Source: Clostridia bacterium
GTDB taxonomy: Bacteria; Bacillota; Clostridia; Oscillospirales; CAG-272
Length of the DNA: 64,000 bases
Reading direction: 5' to 3'
Assembly (NCBI GenBank): GCA_017481595.1
Contig: JAFUOY010000017.1
Location: 5,117 to 69,116, forward strand
Under the pieces are notes generated by a model that was not told the origin of the DNA, made no database searches, and saw only the letters and a program-made list of their open reading frames with translations. This document shows, in pieces, positions 824-45,776 of the stretch. The position numbers and the translations under genes were made by a program. How positions within the stretch are numbered: position 1 is the stretch's first letter; every line of letters starts with the position of its first letter.

Positions 824-1885
824 TTAGCTATTGATCTTGGGGTCAAAGGCATCGCGCAAGCCGTCGCCAAAGAGGTTCAAGGAAAGCACGATAAGTGAAA
901 TTACGATTGCAGGGATAACCAGACGGTAGGGATAAGACATAACACCGTTGAGTGCGTCGCTGGCAAGGGAGCCAAGGGACGGCATAGGCGCGTTTACACC
1001 GAGACCGATAAAGGAAAGGTAGCTTTCCGTAAAGATAGCGCTGGGGATCTGGAGAGCTGTGGAAATAATGATAACGCTGATACAGTTAGGTACCAAGTGC
1101 TTCATAATGATCCAACGGCTGCCTGCGCCCGTTGCTTTTGCAGAGAGAACGTATTCCTGCTCACGAAGGGAGAGGATCTGACCTCTTATAAGTCTTGCCA
1201 TGGATACCCAGTAAAGAAGGGCGAATACGATAAACAAGCTTATTATGTTTCCGCCAATAGCCTCAAGGAACGTACCCTTTAAGGCGTCTCCGAATACCAG
1301 CTTAAATACGGTAGCAAGAAGAATAACCATAAGCATATCGGGAAGTGAGTAGATAATATCAACGATACGCATTATAACAAGGTCCACCTTGCCGCCGAGA
1401 TAACCTGCAAGGGAGCCGATGGTCATACCGATAACAAGAACGATAATGCTGGCAAAGAAGCCTACGGTAAGTGAAATTCTCGTACCGTATACCACTCGTA
1501 TAAAGTAATCTCTGCCTGCGGAGTCAGTACCGAAAATATGGGGGAATACCTTTTCGCCGTTTTCAATACGCTCAAGCTCTGTTGCGCCGTATTCAAAGGG
1601 CTTTAAGTTGTTGTAAGATGGATCAACGGGCTTAAAAAGCTGCTGACCGAGCTGCTCGTCATACTCATAGGGCCATACCATAGGTATGATAAGACAAGCG
1701 ATAGTAATAAATACAATAATAAAGAAGCTTACTGTTGCTACTTTGTTTTTGAGAAGACGCTTTACGCCGTCCTTAAAGAAGGTTGACGGAGGACGCATCT
1801 TGACCATATATTCTTTTTCTTCAGCGGTAGCGGGAATGAATTGATCTAAATCCACCTGCATGCTGAAAGGATTTTTCTTTTTCAT
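824..1885 (-). CDS. oppC: Oligopeptide ABC transporter permease
   Basis: HIFGTDSAGRD motif; EAA loop EYVLSAKATGA; LFGDGLRDAFDP C-terminus. Confidence 0.93.
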   Translation of the reverse strand: MKKKNPFSMQVDLDQFIPATAEEKEYMVKMRPPSTFFKDGVKRLLKNKVATVSFFIIVFITIACLIIPMVWPYEYDEQLGQQLFKPVDPSYNNLKPFEYGATELERIENGEKVFPHIFGTDSAGRDYFIRVVYGTRISLTVGFFASIIVLVIGMTIGSLAGYLGGKVDLVIMRIVDIIYSLPDMLMVILLATVFKLVFGDALKGTFLEAIGGNIISLFIVFALLYWVSMARLIRGQILSLREQEYVLSAKATGAGSRWIIMKHLVPNCISVIIISTALQIPSAIFTESYLSFIGLGVNAPMPSLGSLASDALNGVMSYPYRLVIPAIVISLIVLSLNLFGDGLRDAFDPKINS

Positions 1886-2827: not shown

Positions 2828-3090
2828 TTAATACCTTTCCTTTCTTCCCATACGCTAAAACCTTTTAAAATAAAAAAAGCGTATGGCTATGTTAGATTAT
2901 TTGGCAAATGGGCAATAAAAATTTGAAGAAATATCGTAAAATAAATGATAAAATTCCTTAAAAATCAGTCTGCTCGAAAAATTAGCCAAAAACATTATAG
3001 CACAAAGATTTCTTTTTGTCAATTAGTACTAAATATATTATATAATATTTTTTTAAAAAATAAAATAAATGAAGAAAATGAAAAAAGGTA

Positions 3091-3119
3091 TTGACACGAT
3101 ATAAATTTTGTGATATCAT
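3091..3119 (+). promoter_or_regulatory. Sigma-A promoter probably driving E1-E2-tRNA-Ser
   Basis: TTGACA-17 nt-TATCAT with extended -10 TG. Confidence 0.65.
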
Positions 3120-3163
3120 ATTTAGGCAATAAAAAGCAGAAATGCATTGTTATAATTTGATAA

Positions 3164-3292
3164 GCAGGAATAGCAAAACCTTGTTTTGTGCTTCGGCAGC
3201 CCCTTGTGAGCGAGCTCCCAGATGGCTTTGCCTTGCATACGCAGCGGATTCGCGAAATAAATATCGCGAGCCACTTCGATATGACGCCTGCA
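3164..3292 (+). ncRNA. Structured 129-nt element E1 (unknown family)
   Basis: GCAGG...CCTGC closing stem and three internal stems; 40/44-nt core shared with E2. Confidence 0.6.
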
Positions 3293-3346
3293 TATTTAAT
3301 TGTAGCGATGCACAAAATTAGAAATGCAGATGAAGCATTATAGTAT

Positions 3347-3475
3347 ACAGGAATATCTCACTGACGTGAGGTTACCCACACTTGCCGCTTACAAGCGAGC
3401 TTGACACGGCTTTGTGGGGTACACGCAGCGGATTCGCGAAATGGATTTCGCGAGCCAATTCGATATTGACCTGCA
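3347..3475 (+). ncRNA. Structured 129-nt element E2 (unknown family)
   Basis: Same length and stem layout as E1, with compensatory stem sequences. Confidence 0.6.
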
Positions 3476-3502
3476 TATATGATGCAAGGCTGCATCATAT
3501 AT

Positions 3503-3590
3503 GCAGGAATATCGAAGCGGTCACAACGAGGCGGTCTTGAAAACCGTTAGGCCAAAAGCCACGGGGGTTCGAATCCCTCTTCCTGCGCCA
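3503..3590 (+). tRNA. tRNA-Ser(TGA)
   Basis: Acceptor GCAGGAA/TTCCTGC, anticodon arm GCGGT-CTTGAAA-ACCGT, long variable arm, TTCGAAT T-loop, G73 and encoded CCA. Confidence 0.96.
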
Positions 3591-3592
3591 AC

Positions 3593-3632
3593 AAAAAGAG
3601 AACATTTGTCGGTAGACAAATGTTCTCTTTTT
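3593..3632 (+). terminator. Intrinsic terminator of the tRNA-Ser transcript
   Basis: AAAAAGAGAACATTTGTC-GGTA-GACAAATGTTCTCTTTTT. Confidence 0.85.
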
Positions 3633-3638
3633 GTTTAT

Positions 3639-3817
3639 CCAAGCCGCAGGCTTGGCATATCATCACGACGCAGTCGTGTATATCATCAAGGGCGCAATGC
3701 GCCCTTGTATCTCATCACGCGCCAGCGTGCATCTCCCTGCGGCTTGATGATATACAATGCTTCGCATTGATGATATACCGCAACAAGTTGCGGATGATAT
3801 ACAAGGCTACGCCTTGA
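3639..3817. repeat. Hairpin array A (TATATCAT/ATGATATA linkers, 7 hairpins)
   Basis: 4 hairpins joined by YATMTCAT, then 3 hairpins each preceded by ATGATATA. Confidence 0.85.
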
Positions 3818-3946
3818 TTTATTTACAAAAGCATGGTATAATGAAATAAAAAAGTCAGTGTCCTTTTTATTTGGCTCCGGTACGAGAGGATTCTCACGTC
3901 TTTTTGTGTTGCCTACGTCAAATCTTTTCCATAATTATAAAATAAG

Positions 3947-3977
3947 AAAGCGGCACTTCAAAAGGAGTACCGCTTTT
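3947..3977. terminator. Terminator downstream of the GH4 gene
   Basis: AAAGCGGCACTTC-AAAA-GGAGTACCGCTTT. Confidence 0.65.
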
Positions 3978-3990
3978 GTCATAGCTTATC

Positions 3991-5391
3991 TTATTTCTCA
4001 AGCTCGCTAAGGTCGTAGTCGGAGAGGTATTTCTTTGTGTTGAGTACCATTTCCTTAAACATCTTTTCTGCGTCCTTAAGTCCGCAGGTAACGAGAGGGT
4101 CGGATGAAAAGGCGTTGAAGATAGCCTTAAGGTCACGGCGTGTAATTCCGTCAAATACTGCTTCCTGCTCTGCGCAGATACGGGAGATCAAGGAATGTAT
4201 CTCTGTGGGGATATTTCCTGCAAAAACGGGAGTTACCTCATCGGAACGGAAGATAGCGTTTGTTTCAACGATAGCGCCCAAGGGAAGATTGGGAATCTGT
4301 CCTCTGTTGGGGATATTTACGTTTGTTACAAGGTCTTTAAGACCGAGAAGAGCGCGCATCTGATTTACACCGTCCTCTCCTGTTTTCCAAATCTTTACCT
4401 CCTCTTCGCCACTAAGAAGCTTACGGCTTCTTTCAAGTCTGTTTGCAAGGTCCTGTTTACGCCAGCTTACGGGAGTCAATGCAAATTTCATTTCGTGTAC
4501 TCTTTCGGGGCTTTCAAGATACCATTTGCCGGGGCAGAATTCTGCTAAGTGACGGTCACCTGCTGCCGCAATGTAGCCGAAGCGTCTGAAAAGATCGATT
4601 CTTACCTTGAATTGGCTGGAGAAATGGTTGTTCATCCAGTTGTTGTCAGCCTTTGTGGGTAAGCCGTCGGAATATTTTTCACAAAATTCCTTGTAATAAG
4701 GAAAAAGATCTATTCCGTGATAGGAAGCGGAGGTAAGCCAGGTGAAGTGATTTACAGACACAGGGTTGACCTTTATTTCTTCACGTGAGGCAGTTTCGCC
4801 CAAATATTCCTCGATAACGTAGCCAAGAAGTCCCTGTGTACCGAATACCTCGTGACAGCAACCGAATGCCTTTATCTCGGGGAACACATTGTAAAGTGTT
4901 TTTACGCAAAGGGTCATGGGGTTTGTATAATTTATTACCCACGCGTTGGGAGAAAATTCCTTTATGTATCTGCCTATTTCCTCGAACATAGGAATAGTTC
5001 TCATAGCGCGTACGATGCCACCGGGGCCTGTTGTGTCACCAACGGGCTGATAAATACCGTACTTTTCGGGGGTGTGTACGTCTGACTCCATTTCATCAAA
5101 AGTGCCGGGGAGTATGGATATAACTACAAAATCCGCGCCTGTAAGAGCCTCCTTTGGTGTTTCCACCGCGTAGTAGATCCACTTGGATTTTGCCCCCTCA
5201 CAATCGTTGAACTTGTTGCCTATTATTTCGTTTGCTTTAGCCGCATCCTTATCAATATCGTAAAGATATACGCATCCACTCATGTCATCTGCGGAGGCAA
5301 GGTCACTCATTAGTCCCCATGCCCAGCCGCGTGAGCCGCCGCCAATATAAGCGATCTTTACGTCCGTTGCCTTTTTGTCGATTATTTTCAT
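3991..5391 (-). CDS. GH4 NAD-dependent alpha-galacturonidase (LplD-like)
   Basis: IAYIGGGS, GDTTGPGG, NYTNP and GCCHEV motif; start moved to MKIIDKK (GGAGG RBS). Confidence 0.85.
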   Translation of the reverse strand: MKIIDKKATDVKIAYIGGGSRGWAWGLMSDLASADDMSGCVYLYDIDKDAAKANEIIGNKFNDCEGAKSKWIYYAVETPKEALTGADFVVISILPGTFDEMESDVHTPEKYGIYQPVGDTTGPGGIVRAMRTIPMFEEIGRYIKEFSPNAWVINYTNPMTLCVKTLYNVFPEIKAFGCCHEVFGTQGLLGYVIEEYLGETASREEIKVNPVSVNHFTWLTSASYHGIDLFPYYKEFCEKYSDGLPTKADNNWMNNHFSSQFKVRIDLFRRFGYIAAAGDRHLAEFCPGKWYLESPERVHEMKFALTPVSWRKQDLANRLERSRKLLSGEEEVKIWKTGEDGVNQMRALLGLKDLVTNVNIPNRGQIPNLPLGAIVETNAIFRSDEVTPVFAGNIPTEIHSLISRICAEQEAVFDGITRRDLKAIFNAFSSDPLVTCGLKDAEKMFKEMVLNTKKYLSDYDLSELEK

Positions 5392-8564: not shown

Positions 8565-9921
8565 TAACGTAGAGGTACGTGATGACGGCCATAAGTACGC
8601 ATTGTATCCTATAAAAAAGGGAGAAAACGTAATAAAATACGGCTCTCCCATAGGTCACGCAACGGCGGATATTGAGGTCGGTCAGCACGTTCACACCCAT
8701 AATCTGAAAACAAACCTAAGTGGCAATCTTGAATACTCCTACGAATATAAGGATTACGGAATTACGTACACAGGGTCCGACAAATTCTTTTACGGATACG
8801 TAAGAGAAAACGGGGATGTGGGTATAAGAAACGAGATCTGGATAGTAAATACCGTAGGATGTGTCAATAAAACGGCTAAGATCCTTGCCGAAAGAACGGG
8901 AGCAAAATACTTTCCCCACCCTTACGGCTGCTCCCAGCTTGGGGACGACCAGGATATAACGAGGAAAATACTTTGCGGTATGATAAAGCATCCTAACGCC
9001 GCGGGAGTTTTGGTCCTTGGTCTCGGATGCGAAAACAGTAATATCGGCGAAATTAAAAGGGTGCTTGGAGAGTATGACGAAAAGCGGGTAAAATTTCTTA
9101 ATTGCCAGGACGCAGAGGACGAAATTGCCGAGGGAGTGGCTATAATTGAGGAATTGAAAGCGTATGCTAACACCTTTAAGAGAGAAAAAATAAATATAAG
9201 CCGCCTGCGCCTCGGCTTGAAATGCGGAGGAAGCGACGGATACAGCGGCATTACCGCAAATCCCTTGGTGGGCAGTCTTTGTGACAGGCTCGTTTCCTTT
9301 GGAGGCAGCTGCGTCCTTACCGAGGTGCCCGAAATGTTCGGGGCGGAGCATCTTTTGATGGAAAGATGCGTAAGCCGTGAGGTGTTTGACAAGACCGTTA
9401 AGCTTATTAACGATTTTAAGGACTACTTTACAAGGCATAATCAGGTAATTTATGAAAATCCCTCTCCCGGAAATAAGGCGGGCGGAATCACCACCTTAGA
9501 GGAAAAATCCCTGGGATGTGTACAAAAGGGAGGACTTTCTCCCGTTGTTGACGTCCTTGATTACGGTGACACCCTTTCAAAAAACGGTCTTTCCCTTTTA
9601 AACGGCCCGGGCAACGATATAGTGGCGGTTACTAATCTTACGGCGTGCGGCGCCCATATGATATTATTTACCACGGGCAGAGGAACACCCCTCGGCGCGC
9701 CTGTACCCACGGTCAAGATAGCCACCAACCGCGCCCTTAGCGAAAAGAAGAAAAACTGGATAGATTTTGATGCTTCTCCAATCCTCGACGGAGAGACTAT
9801 GGATAAAATAACCCACCGTTTCCTCGACTACGTGTGCGAAATTGCCTCGGGTAAGGAAACGAAAAATGAAGAAAACGGCTACGCCGAGATCGCGATATTC
9901 AAGGATGGCGTAACCCTTTAA
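8545..9921 (+). CDS. uxaA: Altronate dehydratase
   Basis: SAF N-terminus, HPYGCSQLGDD, KCGGSD, ENPSPGNKAGG, FKDGVTL. Confidence 0.94.
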   Translation: MRIHINDNVEVRDDGHKYALYPIKKGENVIKYGSPIGHATADIEVGQHVHTHNLKTNLSGNLEYSYEYKDYGITYTGSDKFFYGYVRENGDVGIRNEIWIVNTVGCVNKTAKILAERTGAKYFPHPYGCSQLGDDQDITRKILCGMIKHPNAAGVLVLGLGCENSNIGEIKRVLGEYDEKRVKFLNCQDAEDEIAEGVAIIEELKAYANTFKREKINISRLRLGLKCGGSDGYSGITANPLVGSLCDRLVSFGGSCVLTEVPEMFGAEHLLMERCVSREVFDKTVKLINDFKDYFTRHNQVIYENPSPGNKAGGITTLEEKSLGCVQKGGLSPVVDVLDYGDTLSKNGLSLLNGPGNDIVAVTNLTACGAHMILFTTGRGTPLGAPVPTVKIATNRALSEKKKNWIDFDASPILDGETMDKITHRFLDYVCEIASGKETKNEENGYAEIAIFKDGVTL

Positions 9922-9931
9922 GGAGAATAAA

Positions 9932-11320
9932 ATGAGCTACATCAAGGATAATTTTTTACTTAAAAACAAAACTGCAGAGCTTCTTTACAACAGCTATGCA
10001 AAGGATATGCCCATATTTGACTACCACTGTCACTTACCCGAGAAGCAGATCCTTGAAAACAAGTGCTTCAACGATATTTTCGAGATCTGGCTTGCAGGAG
10101 ACCACTACAAGTGGAGACTTATGCGTAATTATGGCGTAAACGAGGAATATATTACGGGCAACAAGTCCAATAAGGAAAAGTTCCTTACCTATTGCAGAGT
10201 TCTTGGTACCGCATTCGGTAACCCCCTTTACCATTGGTCACAGGTGGAGCTTAAGGAATATTTCGGCTGTGAGCTTGAAATAAACGAGAAGAATGCAGAA
10301 GCAATCTGGGATCAGTGTAATTCCTACATCAGAGCAAACAACATTACTCCTCAGTACCTTATTGAAAGCTCCAACGTAAGCCACGTTTTCACCACCAACG
10401 AGGTCTTTGACGACCTTACTACCTTTGTTGATATAAAGAAAAAGGGCTACAAATTCGAGGTTATTCCCGCATTCCGCGGCGATAAGATAATGAATATCGA
10501 GGCAAAGGGCTACCTTACCTTCCTTGGCAAGCTTGAGGCTCTTACCCATAAGATAGAGTCCATTTGCGACCTTGAAAACGCACTCGAGATAAGACTTAAG
10601 GAATTTATCAAGGTTGGTACAAGAGCAAGTGATATAGCCGTTGAGCAGGTTTACGACGTGCCTACAAAGGAAGAGGCTGACGCAGTTCTTAAAAAGGTTA
10701 TAGGGGGAGAGGCTCCCACAGTTAAGGACAGCGAGGTATTCAAGGGATATATTACCTACTTCCTTATGAAAATGTACGCGGAATATAAGATAGCTACTGA
10801 GCTTCATATAGGAGCAATGAGAAACAATAACGCCGTAATGCTTGAAAAGCTTGGTCTTGACACAGGCTTTGACAGTATTTCCGACACCAACAGTATCGGT
10901 AAGCTTTCCCGCCTTATGGATAAGCTTAACTCCGAGGGTAAGCTTCCTAAGCTTATTATCTTCAACTTGAATCCCAAGATGAATGCAGAAATTATGACAA
11001 TTATGGGCTGCTTCCAGTCCGACGAGGCAAGGGGAAAGATACAGTACGGCCCTGCTTGGTGGTTCCTTGACAATAAGGTAGGTATGGAAAGACATCTTGA
11101 GGACCTTACCGCAACGGGACACCTTGGCGCCTTCGTGGGTATGCTTACCGACAGCCGTTCACTCCTCTCCTATCCCAGACACCATTATTTCAGAAGAATA
11201 CTTTGCACATATCTGGGCACACTTATAGAAAATGGAGAAATGACCTCCGATATGGACGTTGTATCAGAGGTAGTCAAGGACGTTTGCTACAATAACTCCA
11301 TAAATTATTTCTTTAACTAA
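9932..11320 (+). CDS. uxaC: Uronate isomerase
   Basis: DYHCH, GDHYKWRLMR, AWWFLD, GMLTDSRS. Confidence 0.94.
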   Translation: MSYIKDNFLLKNKTAELLYNSYAKDMPIFDYHCHLPEKQILENKCFNDIFEIWLAGDHYKWRLMRNYGVNEEYITGNKSNKEKFLTYCRVLGTAFGNPLYHWSQVELKEYFGCELEINEKNAEAIWDQCNSYIRANNITPQYLIESSNVSHVFTTNEVFDDLTTFVDIKKKGYKFEVIPAFRGDKIMNIEAKGYLTFLGKLEALTHKIESICDLENALEIRLKEFIKVGTRASDIAVEQVYDVPTKEEADAVLKKVIGGEAPTVKDSEVFKGYITYFLMKMYAEYKIATELHIGAMRNNNAVMLEKLGLDTGFDSISDTNSIGKLSRLMDKLNSEGKLPKLIIFNLNPKMNAEIMTIMGCFQSDEARGKIQYGPAWWFLDNKVGMERHLEDLTATGHLGAFVGMLTDSRSLLSYPRHHYFRRILCTYLGTLIENGEMTSDMDVVSEVVKDVCYNNSINYFFN

Positions 11321-32101: not shown

Positions 32102-32296
32102 TTGTCCACCTCCTGTGCATAATTACCTTATTATATCATTGTAACATATTTTTTTATGCTGTGCAAGGCTAAAACATATAATTTAATAATATTTAATAAA
32201 TACGCCCCCCATACCTCCTTATGAAAGTTGACAAAAAGGTATTTTAATGATATACTTAAACGGTAAGAACCAACTCAAAGGAAGGGTAAAGCAGAG

Positions 32297-45700: not shown

Positions 45701-45776
45701 GCTACTGTGGCTCAGTTGGTAGAGCACATCCTTGGTAAGGATGAGGTCACCGGTTCGATTCCGGTCAGTAGCTCCA
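45701..45776 (+). tRNA. tRNA-Thr(GGT)
   Basis: Acceptor GCTACTG/CAGTAGC, anticodon arm CATCC-TTGGTAA-GGATG, TTCGATT, CCA. Confidence 0.97.

What the first reader, a model, noticed from the sequence alone, without database searches (positions are those of the whole stretch)
3164..3516. Two tandem 129-nt structured elements that copy and mirror the 5' end of tRNA-Ser
Seen: E1 (3164-3292) and E2 (3347-3475) have the same length and lie between a TTGACA/TATCAT promoter (3091) and tRNA-Ser, with no terminator in between. Each begins with the tRNA's own first bases (GCAGGAATAGC, ACAGGAATATC; tRNA GCAGGAATATC). Each ends with a near-antisense of tRNA nt 1-18 (CCACTTCGATATgacgCCTGC, CCAATTCGATATTgaCCTGC; exact antisense CCGCTTCGATATTCCTGC). 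The 3' cores match at 40/44 nt. The 5' halves differ in sequence but keep the same stems: hairpin 1 CAAAAC/GTTTTG vs CTCAC/GTGAG; the long arm GGCA-GCC-GAGC/GCTC-GGC-TGCC vs TACCC-ACA-GCCG-CAAGC/GCTTG-CGGC-TGT-GGGTA. This looks like covariation. I do not recognise the family. Inference: either a non-autonomous element that inserts repeatedly at tRNA 5' ends, duplicating about 11 nt and carrying an antisense guide to its target, or a co-transcribed ncRNA involved in tRNA processing.
Basis: partly seen in the sequence, partly recalled or inferred. Interest (0 to 1): 0.85.

Follow-up and report, generated by a model that had tools for sequence, protein, structure and literature searches.

The report
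Structured elements mirroring tRNA gene ends
The two repeats in front of this serine tRNA gene belong to a large, undescribed family of small folded non-coding elements that sit beside tRNA genes and wear copies of the neighbouring tRNA's end as their closing stem, which most likely marks a new kind of tRNA-targeting insertion element.

Summary
E1 (3164-3292) and E2 (3347-3475) are real, homologous and structured. They lie between a strong promoter (3091-3119) and tRNA-Ser(UGA) (3503-3590). No Rfam family matches them.

They belong to a large family. It occurs in 44 of 50 genomes of the genus and in 17 of 97 genera sampled in the family. A four-way-junction core of about 100 nt is supported by compensatory changes in 43 of 43 pairs across 99 copies.

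Of 80 copies examined, 71 point their 3' end at a tRNA or tmRNA gene end:
- 29 lie upstream of tRNA-Ser(UGA/CGA) on the same strand.
- 42 lie beyond the terminator of 14 other tRNA kinds or tmRNA, on the opposite strand.

In each, the closing stem is a direct copy plus an inverted copy of the neighbouring gene end. Related cores sit at different tRNAs and share only the core. Arrays mix lineages. The 3'-side copies lack promoters.

Best reading (0.55): a non-autonomous insertion element whose arms are taken from its target. The mechanism is inferred and no partner enzyme was found. Rivals are a tRNA-linked regulatory RNA and integrase-made mini-elements. No expression data could be obtained.

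The parts
3091..3119 (+). Sigma-70-type promoter TTGACA-17-TATCAT with TG extension, which drives E1-E2-tRNA-Ser
   Evidence: 11 of 12 consensus positions. It is the only + strand site in 2900-3700. In one search, 17 of 25 tRNA-Ser 5'-type arrays have such a site within 170 nt upstream.
3149..3306 (+). E1 with its extended closing stem; the flanks pair beyond the model match
   Evidence: fold of 3146-3306 at -52.5 kcal/mol. The outer stem GTTATAATTTGATAAGCAGG pairs with CCTGCATATTTAATTGTAGC.
3164..3292 (+). E1: covariance-model match, with closing stem P1 and hairpins P2, P3 (long arm) and P4
   Evidence: R1 125.2 bits; R2 112.4 bits. The 5' end copies tRNA nt 1-9. 3271-3282 is antisense to tRNA nt 7-18 (I11).
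3335..3485 (+). E2 with its extended closing stem, which includes a copy of the leader
   Evidence: fold of 3328-3490 at -56.9 kcal/mol. GCATTATAGTATACAGGAATATC pairs with GATATTGACCTGCATATATGATGC.
3347..3475 (+). E2: covariance-model match. Same architecture as E1, but the 5' half has a different sequence.
   Evidence: R1 99.5 bits; R2 76.1 bits. In the tree of cores E2 has a long end branch (0.36) and only 66% identity to E1.
3453..3522 (+). Mirror hairpin: E2's inverted copy plus linker paired with the tRNA leader and tRNA nt 1-20. The perfect 17-bp arms are 3470-3486 and 3491-3507.
   Evidence: I6; alignment of the hairpin; the whole-transcript minimum-energy fold uses this pairing.
3503..3590 (+). 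tRNA-Ser(UGA), the target gene whose 5' end is copied
   Evidence: ARAGORN; Rfam tRNA, 53.8 bits.
3590..3635 (+). Terminator hairpin of the tRNA: 21-nt arms, 100% complementary, with A- and T-tracts on either side
   Evidence: I2; sequence.

Best explanation
E1 and E2 are two separate insertions of a small, non-coding, non-autonomous element family that targets the ends of tRNA and tmRNA genes.

**Anatomy.** Each unit has a conserved core of about 100 nt that folds on one strand into three hairpins (P2, P3, P4) around a junction. A long stem closes the core. Its two strands are a direct copy (far side) and an inverted copy (near side) of the neighbouring gene end plus its flank. The layout is always [direct copy]-core-[inverted copy]-[hairpin linker]-[tRNA end], with the 3' end of the core facing the tRNA.

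**Proposed mechanism (inferred).** The element moves as a folded single strand, DNA or an RNA copy. Its closing stem is a duplex replica of the target site, as in the folded attP of CTXphi or integron attC. A host or island recombinase acting in trans exchanges strands between this replica and the real gene end. The arms are renewed from the new target at or after each move; how is unknown.

**At tRNA-Ser.** The units lie inside the transcription unit, so they are transcribed with the tRNA. Pairing of the direct copy with the inverted copy would keep the inverted copy from trapping the tRNA 5' end.

**Shown:** the family, the structure, the strand of folding, the tRNA-end association, arms that match the target, mixing of lineages among targets, and the lack of promoters at 3'-side copies.

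**Inferred:** mobility itself, the single-strand intermediate, the recombinase, and the insulating role of the direct copy.
For: **Family size and spread.**
- 44 of 50 genus genomes have matches, up to 9 per genome.
- The window's own genome has 6 copies.
- 22 of 151 genomes and 17 of 97 genera sampled in the family have matches.
- Only 2 of 143 genomes from other families of the order have matches.

**Structure.** On 99 copies, 86.0% of cells are paired against at most 44.4% in slid controls, 43 of 43 pairs show compensatory change, and the covariation score is 0.694 against 0.198 shuffled. The 61-copy alignment gives the same picture.

**Strand.** G-U pairs outnumber A-C mismatches 125:52 and 105:40 on the element strand.

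**Position.** Of 80 copies, 29 lie upstream of tRNA-Ser(UGA/CGA) on the same strand (median gap 31 nt). 42 converge on the 3' end of 14 tRNA kinds or tmRNA (median gap 50 nt). 9 have no tRNA within 700 nt. At least 7 of those 9 (L042 x3, L051, L054, L059 x2) have what I read as a tRNA 3' remnant beyond the array, followed by other DNA. For L042 and L051 that DNA holds an island recombinase gene.

**Arms match the target.** Local scores against the element's own tRNA end are 9.9 (direct) and 8.8 (inverted), against 5.7 and 6.9 for mismatched pairs. Two copies in other families carry 17-18-nt copies of their tRNA-Gln 3' end.

**Movement between targets.**
- The tree of cores mixes 3'-side targets, and starred branches force at least 4 changes for Gln-CTG and 3 for Ser-GCT.
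- The tree needs 5 changes between 5'-side and 3'-side positions.
- Arrays (L043, L050, L042, L046) hold units from different clades.
- In 5 of 5 same-clade pairs at different tRNAs, similarity stops at the core. Arms and linker differ.

**No cargo or nearby enzyme.** Units have no ORF of note, and the flanking genes are housekeeping.

**Promoters.** 3'-side arrays lack a promoter-like site on the element strand in 31 of 32 cases. 5'-side arrays have one in 17 of 25.

**Sites without a full-length element in the genus.**
- G343 has promoter, 57-nt leader and tRNA-Ser(CGA) with no element.
- G316 has the promoter and leader joined directly to a tRNA-Ser 5' half.
- G304 has only a shortened element.
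Against: - **No direct sign of movement.** No insertion polymorphism in one strain, no excised form and no circle junction was seen. Two metagenome pattern scans for an empty or single-unit form of this locus found nothing.
- **No partner enzyme was found.** Y1/RAYT transposases were not found in the window's genome or in the 2 other genus genomes sampled. The island integrase next to one array has relatives of at least 45% identity in only 12 of 50 genus genomes. One of those 12 (G344) has no element.
- **The strand-exchange model does not explain arm renewal.** It also predicts that the linker travels with the element, which the 5 pairs do not show.
- **Vertical retention.** Within the genus the tRNA-Ser copies form one clade (support 100) and are nearly fixed. 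That also fits a retained, useful RNA.
- **The tree is thin.** It rests on 100 columns and a quick search.
- **Possible bias.** The alignments were fitted to the model, which favours the structure and the strand.
- **No expression data.**
Confidence: 0.55

Rival explanations
1. A functional non-coding RNA tied to tRNA biogenesis. The core binds a protein or ligand. The closing stem (tRNA-end copy paired with its antisense) competes with pairing of the antisense arm to the precursor tRNA end. The element would thus gate RNase P/RNase III processing or the stability of the neighbouring tRNA.
For: - The tRNA-Ser copies lie between the promoter and the tRNA with no terminator in between, so they are part of the precursor.
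- In 4 of 4 loci folded, the whole-precursor minimum-energy fold pairs the antisense arm and linker with the tRNA leader and 5' end. This beats 'element fold plus cloverleaf' by 8.1 to 17.5 kcal/mol, which is a switch-like layout.
- The structure is strongly conserved and folds on the transcribed strand at tRNA-Ser.
- The tRNA-Ser clade is near-fixed in the genus.
Against: - 42 of 80 copies lie on the strand opposite to the tRNA, beyond its terminator. Only 1 of 32 such arrays has a promoter-like site upstream.
- Copy number varies from 0 to 3 per locus, and arrays mix lineages.
- Cores have moved between unrelated tRNAs.
- A regulator would not be expected at 14 tRNA kinds plus tmRNA, in either of two geometries.
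Confidence: 0.2
2. Miniature integrative elements, or leftover att sites, made by ordinary double-strand (Campbell-type) recombination by tRNA-targeting integrases of genomic islands. The direct repeats would be the att identity segments, and the core a conserved attP arm region.
For: - Direct copies of the tRNA 3' end reach to the T-stem, the classic T-loop integration site (recalled, not tested); for example 17-18 nt in L104.
- tmRNA is also a target.
- Large islands lie between the tRNA side and the element arrays, next to a tyrosine integrase or a serine recombinase gene. In L063 the tRNA-Ser(GCT) gene is about 6 kb from the array; in L062 no tRNA gene lies within the 10.7 kb fetched. So these sites are live attachment sites.
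- In an array read by eye (L043), the inter-unit terminators carry their T-tract only in the tRNA-sense direction, as expected if a unit supplies the tRNA with a terminator.
Against: - Double-strand protein-binding arms do not predict compensatory base-pair changes in 43 of 43 pairs or a G-U strand bias.
- The long inverted copy next to the tRNA is not needed in a Campbell model.
- The tRNA-Ser copies sit at the 5' end.
- Linkers differ between same-clade units.
- Relatives of the one integrase tested do not track the element.
Confidence: 0.15
3. There is no mobility and no function. These would be decayed local duplications and fold-back (palindromic) duplications of tRNA gene ends around hairpins, homogenised by gene conversion.
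For: - The inverted copy, linker and tRNA end form one long palindrome centred on a hairpin. Fold-back synthesis can make such palindromes.
- Some tandem units are near-identical, as after local duplication (L022, L045, L060).
Against: - A shared structured core of about 100 nt at 15 kinds of loci in 17 genera cannot arise independently by local duplication.
- Purifying selection on pairing is evident.
Confidence: 0.05

Closest known systems
Folded single-strand recombination sites: CTXphi attP(+) with XerCD/dif, and integron attC with IntI
   Same: - One strand folds into a stem that imitates or partners a double-stranded target.
- Structure is conserved more than sequence.
- The fold has conserved mismatches: pair 67-126 is unpaired in 69 of 99 copies.
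- Tandem arrays build up next to a reconstituted target.
- My strand-exchange sketch reproduces the observed order: direct copy, core, inverted copy, linker, target.
   Different: - The target here is a tRNA or tmRNA gene end, not dif or attI.
- The arms differ with each target instead of being constant.
- No integron or phage context was seen.
- No recombinase has been tied to the elements.
- The three-hairpin core has no counterpart in these systems.
- What is known about CTXphi and attC is recalled from memory, apart from abstracts listed.
REP/REPIN elements mobilised by RAYT (Y1 HUH) transposases, and IS200/IS605-derived palindromic elements
   Same: - Small non-coding intergenic repeats.
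- Strand-specific hairpins with compensatory changes.
- Often near terminators.
- Non-autonomous.
   Different: - No Y1_Tnp gene was found in the window's genome or in the 2 other genus genomes sampled, although they hold 5-7 copies.
- These elements are tied to tRNA ends and have target-derived arms. REPs have neither property (recalled).
tRNA-targeting integrative elements and their cis-mobilisable remnants (Campbell integration)
   Same: - Same targets: the 3' ends of tRNA and tmRNA genes.
- Direct repeats of the tRNA end flank the insert.
- True islands use the same sites in these genomes.
   Different: - Units are 160-215 nt and carry no gene.
- They have an added long inverted copy.
- Their core is structured with covarying pairs.
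- They also occur at the 5' end of tRNA-Ser.
IS110/IS1111 bridge (seek) RNAs
   Same: A structured RNA of about 130-180 nt inside a mobile element carries sequence matched to the insertion target on both strands.
   Different: - Bridge RNA guides lie in internal loops, address left and right target halves, and sit beside a recombinase gene (abstract and listing, otherwise recalled).
- Here both arms copy the same stretch, pair with each other at the termini, and no recombinase gene is adjacent.
- IS110 genes were not searched for.
MITEs (miniature inverted-repeat transposable elements)
   Same: - Short and non-coding.
- Terminal inverted repeats that fold into a long hairpin.
- Flanking direct repeats.
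- Multiple copies.
   Different: MITE terminal repeats are constant within a family because a transposase reads them (recalled). Here the terminal repeats change with each target, and only the interior is conserved.

Membership tests
Any Rfam 15 family | Covariance-model score at or above the family's gathering score | tested here: not met
   (whole window): only the two tRNAs. (E-value mode, 2950-4300): only weak miRNA-type hits to the palindrome, best E 0.048 at 24.5 bits against a gathering score of 100. (10 related loci): only tRNA and tmRNA.
tRNA gene or pseudogene | Called by ARAGORN or the Rfam tRNA model | tested here: not met
   call only 3503-3590 and 45701-45776. E1 and E2 share only the first 9-11 nt with the tRNA.
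REP/REPIN-RAYT | A Y1 (RAYT/IS200-type) transposase gene in genomes that carry the repeats | tested here: not met
   PF01797 has no match in G000, G031 or G120, which hold 6, 7 and 5 copies. G000 is only 62% complete.
MITE | Terminal inverted repeats constant across copies of the family | tested here: not met
   The arms follow the neighbouring tRNA. Same-clade cores at different tRNAs have unrelated arms (5 of 5 pairs).
Integrative element (Campbell type) | Direct repeats of the tRNA end flank the insert | tested here: met
   the median direct copy is 13 nt (5'-type) or 15 nt (3'-type), reaching 21-25 nt in single loci.
Integrative element (Campbell type) | An integrase gene inside the element | tested here: not met
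   Units are 160-215 nt. The window's neighbours are ABC permease and glycoside hydrolase genes. The neighbours of the genome's other copies are housekeeping genes.
Integron cassette / attC | Integron integrase with attI, and R''/R' core sites | not tested
   No search for IntI or for attC core motifs was run.
CTXphi-type IMEX | The target is dif, and the folded strand imitates XerC/XerD binding sites | tested here: not met
   The targets are tRNA or tmRNA gene ends. No dif-like site was looked for.
IS110/IS1111 bridge RNA | Guides in internal loops, next to a DEDD/Ser recombinase gene | tested here: not met
   The target-matching stretches are the paired termini, not loops. No ORF is adjacent. 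IS110 genes elsewhere in the genomes were not searched for.
T-box or other tRNA-sensing leader | Match to the T-box model, and a downstream regulated gene | tested here: not met
   No T-box hit. 42 of 80 copies have no downstream gene and face a tRNA 3' end.

The most novel reading that the evidence does not exclude
This is a new class of mobile element whose insertion specificity is written in nucleic acid taken from the target itself. A conserved three-hairpin core is carried from one tRNA or tmRNA gene end to another, and each time it is re-clothed with a direct and an inverted copy of the new gene end. The folded single strand thereby presents a duplex replica of its own target to a recombinase. 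If so, it would be a naturally re-programmable, protein-gene-free integration module.
Probability: 0.3. Interest if true: 0.9.

Novelty: new variant of a known kind. Interest (0 to 1): 0.8.

Why it matters
tRNA and tmRNA genes are the classic landing sites of genomic islands, but the known users of these sites carry their own integrase. This family differs: it has no gene, a strongly conserved fold, and end sequences that change to match whichever tRNA end it sits beside, on either side of the gene.

If it is mobile, it shows a way to set and reset target choice by nucleic-acid mimicry. That could be tested directly and might be adapted as a tool. If it is instead a working RNA, it would be a widespread regulator of tRNA maturation in uncultured gut Clostridia.

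In both cases it explains many intergenic 'orphan' repeats and contig breaks next to tRNAs in these genomes. It also supplies a covariance model with which to annotate them.

Tried and rejected
**Known RNA family.** Rejected. The Rfam gathering and E-value scans gave nothing for E1/E2 or for ten related loci.

**Phage or plasmid origin.** blastn (distant mode) of 3140-3500 found no match in the phage or plasmid collections.

**Y1/RAYT partner.** Rejected for this genus.

**Island integrase as partner.** Close relatives (at least 45% identity) occur in 12 of 50 genus genomes, one of which has no element. There is no tracking.

**Synteny route to an empty site.** 19 loci were examined out of the 80 loci holding relatives of the neighbouring GH4 gene. 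None has a tRNA-Ser or an element beside it.

**Empty or single-unit form of this exact locus in metagenome contigs.** Two pattern scans gave 0 matches each. This is weak, because exact matching of 39 bases was required.

**Expression.**
- The look-up of sequencing runs listed 6 RNA runs, all with small shares of the words (best 0.27).
- So I have no expression evidence either way, and I make no claim from the shares.

**Primer-binding-site idea.** The idea was that the 5' arm of 3'-side copies is complementary to a mature tRNA 3' end. Rejected: where the tRNA gene lacks an encoded CCA, the copy lacks TGG too (L043). The copy is therefore of the gene, not of the mature tRNA.

**Coding.** ORFs over E1/E2 (50-98 aa) are mechanical. 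The covarying pairs argue for structure, not coding.

**Literature.** Five full-text searches found no description of such elements. I read search listings and abstracts only, plus the passages holding 'tRNA' in one preprint (10.64898/2026.10.21.760802), which do not mention them. Supplements were not seen.

Full report
**What is in the window.**
- Positions 3091-3119 hold a near-consensus promoter, TTGACA-17-TATCAT with a TG extension (11 of 12).
- Two 129-nt elements follow: E1 at 3164-3292 and E2 at 3347-3475.
- Next comes tRNA-Ser(UGA) at 3503-3590.
- A perfect 21-bp terminator hairpin lies at 3590-3635 (I2).
- E1 and E2 align at 83% column identity. Their 3' halves are nearly the same: 40 of 44 bases, with a shared 20-mer found twice against 0.01 expected. 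Their 5' halves differ in sequence but fold alike.
- Both fold into a closing stem and three hairpins, better than shuffles (z -2.4 and -4.1).
- Each starts with a copy of the first 9-11 nt of the tRNA and ends with a near-antisense of nt 1-18.

**Two additions to the observation.**
- With 15-20 nt of flank on each side, the closing stems grow to about 20-25 bp. The sequence just upstream of each element resembles the tRNA leader, and the sequence just downstream is its mirror.
- E2's 3' arm and the linker form a perfect 17-bp inverted repeat with the leader and first five bases of the tRNA (3470-3486 / 3491-3507, I6). This is extendable to about 30 bp.

**Not a known RNA family.** Rfam 15 gave only the two tRNAs at gathering thresholds. 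In E-value mode it gave only weak microRNA-type hits to the palindrome. ARAGORN does not call the elements.

**A large family.**
- A third copy lies in the same genome directly upstream of tRNA-Ser(CGA). It starts GCAGAGATAG where its tRNA starts GCAGAGATATCG.
- Model R1, a covariance model built from five copies, found matches in 44 of 50 genomes of the genus, and in 21 of 23 high-quality ones. There are up to nine per genome, often in tandem with periods of about 160-215 nt.
- A broader model, R2, found six copies in the window's genome.
- R2 found matches in 22 of 151 genomes and 17 of 97 genera of the family.
- Only 2 of 143 genomes from other families of the order have matches.
- Titles of related records mark these organisms as uncultured Clostridia from ruminant hindguts.

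**The structure is real.**
- On 99 copies aligned to R2, 86.0% of pair cells are standard pairs, against 38.7-44.4% when the 3' partners are slid by one to three columns.
- All 43 pairs show changes on both sides. The covariation score is 0.694 against 0.198 in shuffles, and 0 of 500 shuffles reach it.
- The 61-copy alignment gives the same picture.
- The alignments were fitted to the model, which leans towards the structure, but the margin is large.
- G-U pairs outnumber A-C mismatches about 2.5 to 1 on the element strand (125:52 and 105:40). Several G-U pairs are conserved, for example 70 of 99 copies at pair 37-155. So the fold belongs to the strand as modelled.
- The consensus keeps a GCRAGC tip on P3, a conserved mismatch in the P3 tip (69 of 99 copies unpaired at pair 67-126), and a T-CG-A junction before P4.

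**Where the copies sit.** I examined 80 copies in the loci I held.
- 29 lie upstream of tRNA-Ser(UGA) (20) or tRNA-Ser(CGA) (9) on the tRNA's strand. The median gap is 31 nt, or about 190-220 nt when another unit lies between.
- 42 lie downstream of another tRNA on the opposite strand, converging on its 3' end. The median gap is 50 nt, and it is filled by a bidirectional terminator.
- Those 42 cover Arg-ACG, Arg-CCT, Gln-CTG, Gln-TTG, Glu-CTC, Glu-TTC, Pro-CGG, Cys, Lys, Tyr, Leu-GAG, Ser-GCT, Ser-UGA and Ser-CGA, plus tmRNA.
- 9 have no tRNA within 700 nt.
- At least 7 of these 9 (L042 x3, L051, L054, L059 x2) have, beyond the array, what I read as a short remnant of a tRNA 3' end followed by other DNA.
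- For L042 and L051 that DNA holds a serine recombinase or a tyrosine integrase gene.
- In L063 the tRNA-Ser(GCT) gene lies about 6 kb from the array. In L062 no tRNA gene lies in the 10.7 kb fetched.
- The window genome's three other copies face tRNA-Glu(CTC), tRNA-Gln(TTG) and tRNA-Pro(CGG) at gaps of 57, 43 and 47 nt. Their flanking genes are housekeeping.

**The arms follow the target.**
- In every geometry the order is [direct copy of the gene end]-core-[inverted copy]-[hairpin linker]-[gene end], and the 3' end of the core faces the tRNA.
- Arms score higher against their own tRNA end than against other tRNA ends of the same geometry: 9.9 against 5.7 for the direct copy and 8.8 against 6.9 for the inverted copy.
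- Single loci show 17-25-nt copies, for example TTTATTTTGGTTGCGGAACTAGGAT in L104.
- In the loci I read by eye, the inverted copy at 3'-side units often reproduces the last 25-30 nt of the tRNA, including the discriminator and CCA. It is followed by the A-tract and the left arm of the terminator, so two tRNA 3' ends face each other across one terminator.
- Where the tRNA gene has no encoded CCA, the copies lack it too (L043). The copies are therefore taken from the gene.

**Signs of movement.**
- A maximum-likelihood tree of the cores alone (100 columns, quick search, so weakly resolved) puts the genus's tRNA-Ser copies in one well-supported clade (support 100: 24 tRNA-Ser copies plus one long branch).
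- It mixes the 3'-side copies among targets. Starred branches force at least 4 changes for Gln-CTG, 3 for Ser-GCT and 2 for Arg-ACG.
- It needs 5 changes between 5'-side and 3'-side positions.
- Arrays at one tRNA hold units of different clades (L043, L050, L042, L046). E1 and E2 are themselves only 66% identical in the core.
- In five same-clade pairs that sit at different tRNAs, similarity begins at P2 and ends at the junction or P4. The arms and the linker are unrelated (5 of 5).
- So only the core is shared between sites, and the arms are renewed at each site.
- Sites without an element exist in the genus. G343 has promoter, 57-nt leader and tRNA-Ser(CGA) with no element. G316 has the orthologous promoter and leader joined directly to a tRNA-Ser 5' half. 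G304 has a shortened element that lacks P3.

**RNA or DNA?**
- At tRNA-Ser the units lie inside the transcription unit. 17 of 25 arrays have a promoter-like site (at least 10 of 12) within 170 nt upstream.
- At 3'-side arrays only 1 of 32 has such a site on the element strand, against 6 of 32 on the other strand of the same stretch.
- In an array read by eye (L043), the inter-unit terminators have their T-tract only in the tRNA-sense direction.
- A fold that is conserved on a strand with no evident promoter points to use as single-stranded DNA, or as an RNA made only in some transient form.
- As RNA, the tRNA-Ser precursors look hazardous. In 4 of 4 loci the minimum-energy fold of the whole precursor pairs the inverted copy and linker with the tRNA leader and 5' end. 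This beats 'element fold plus cloverleaf' by 8.1-17.5 kcal/mol.
- Because the direct copy is transcribed first, it can capture the inverted copy and leave the tRNA free. This is my inference for why the direct copy is kept.
- I could get no expression data.

**Mechanism.**
- The layout is what a one-strand exchange would give between a double-stranded target t and a folded single strand whose stem t/t' replicates that target: flank-t-core-t'-linker-t-gene. This is the logic of CTXphi attP(+) and integron attC (recalled).
- It explains the strand-specific fold, the fixed orientation, the inverted copy and the build-up of arrays next to a restored target.
- It does not explain how the arms are renewed. 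It also predicts that the linker moves with the element, which one search does not show.
- No enzyme could be tied to the family. Y1 transposases were not found in the three genus genomes sampled. Relatives of the one island integrase tested are found in 12 of 50 genus genomes and do not track the element.
- I therefore hold 'insertion element with target-derived arms' at 0.55, and the particular single-strand mechanism at well below that.

**Rivals.**
- A tRNA-linked regulatory RNA (0.2) fits the tRNA-Ser copies and their switch-like alternative pairings. It does not fit the promoter-less, opposite-strand majority.
- Integrase-made mini-elements by double-strand recombination (0.15) fit the targets and the direct repeats. 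They do not fit the covarying fold, the inverted copy or the 5' position.
- Purely local duplication (0.05) cannot give one core at 15 kinds of loci.

**Novelty.**
- No Rfam family matches.
- There is no match in the phage or plasmid collections.
- Five full-text searches, read as listings and abstracts plus one set of passages, found no description.
- I file it cautiously as a new variant of a known kind: small structured non-autonomous intergenic elements that use tRNA genes as sites.
- None of the named families passes its membership test, however. The target-derived arms have no counterpart that I can name.

Noticed in passing
window 3640-3818: Just after the tRNA-Ser terminator lies an array of six short G+C-rich hairpins. 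Each is flanked by TGATGATATAC or its complement, three in each orientation, and together they form a larger imperfect palindrome (inverted repeats I1, I3, I4). All six matches with at most 1 mismatch in this stretch cluster here. The only other such match in the window is at 32245-32255. The same motif array lies distal to an element array in another genome (L051, G340).
   Followed up: partly
L069 (G316) about 1280-1330 and L067 (G324) about 1335-1380: A truncated 5' half of a tRNA-Ser (about the first 42 nt, ending in the anticodon loop) with its own promoter lies about 115-160 nt upstream of a complete tRNA-Ser that has a different acceptor stem. The spacer holds a TTTCTCGCAGTTTTCTCGCAA-type repeat. 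This looks like a second, different small insertion or replacement event at the tRNA-Ser 5' half.
   Followed up: no
L062 (G239:C17) 8847-10361 and L063 (G340:C40) 9592-10341: Islands are inserted on the tRNA side of element arrays. Their array-side ends share an AACCTCAGTTGAACA stretch. Yet one has a large serine recombinase gene next to that end and the other a tyrosine integrase gene. The integrase copy in L063 looks N-terminally short (249 aa; relatives have open frames of 307-344 aa).
   Followed up: partly
L065 (G304:C19), minus strand, 1620-1695: A shortened element lacking the long P3 arm lies upstream of tRNA-Ser(UGA), with its own TTGACA-17-TATAAT promoter about 7 nt before its 5' end. 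Further upstream is a fragment that starts like the tRNA (GCAGGGGTATCGGTCATAACGGG) and then diverges.
   Followed up: no
L042, L045, L059 (inter-unit spacers of arrays): A GTGCGAACATCAT motif recurs just upstream of the 5' arm of non-distal units, in arrays of three different genomes and at two different tRNAs. Its role (promoter part, or unit boundary) is unknown.
   Followed up: no
L011 (G160:C56) 1274-1568, minus strand: In another genus of the family, tandem units of about 190 nt with the same core lie near tRNA-Met and tRNA-Glu. The first blastn search picked up only their P3 tip, GTGAGCGAGCTCC...GGCTTT.
   Followed up: partly
window 45701-45776: The window's other tRNA gene, tRNA-Thr(GGT), has no element of this family on either side at E up to 1 with model R2.
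   Followed up: yes
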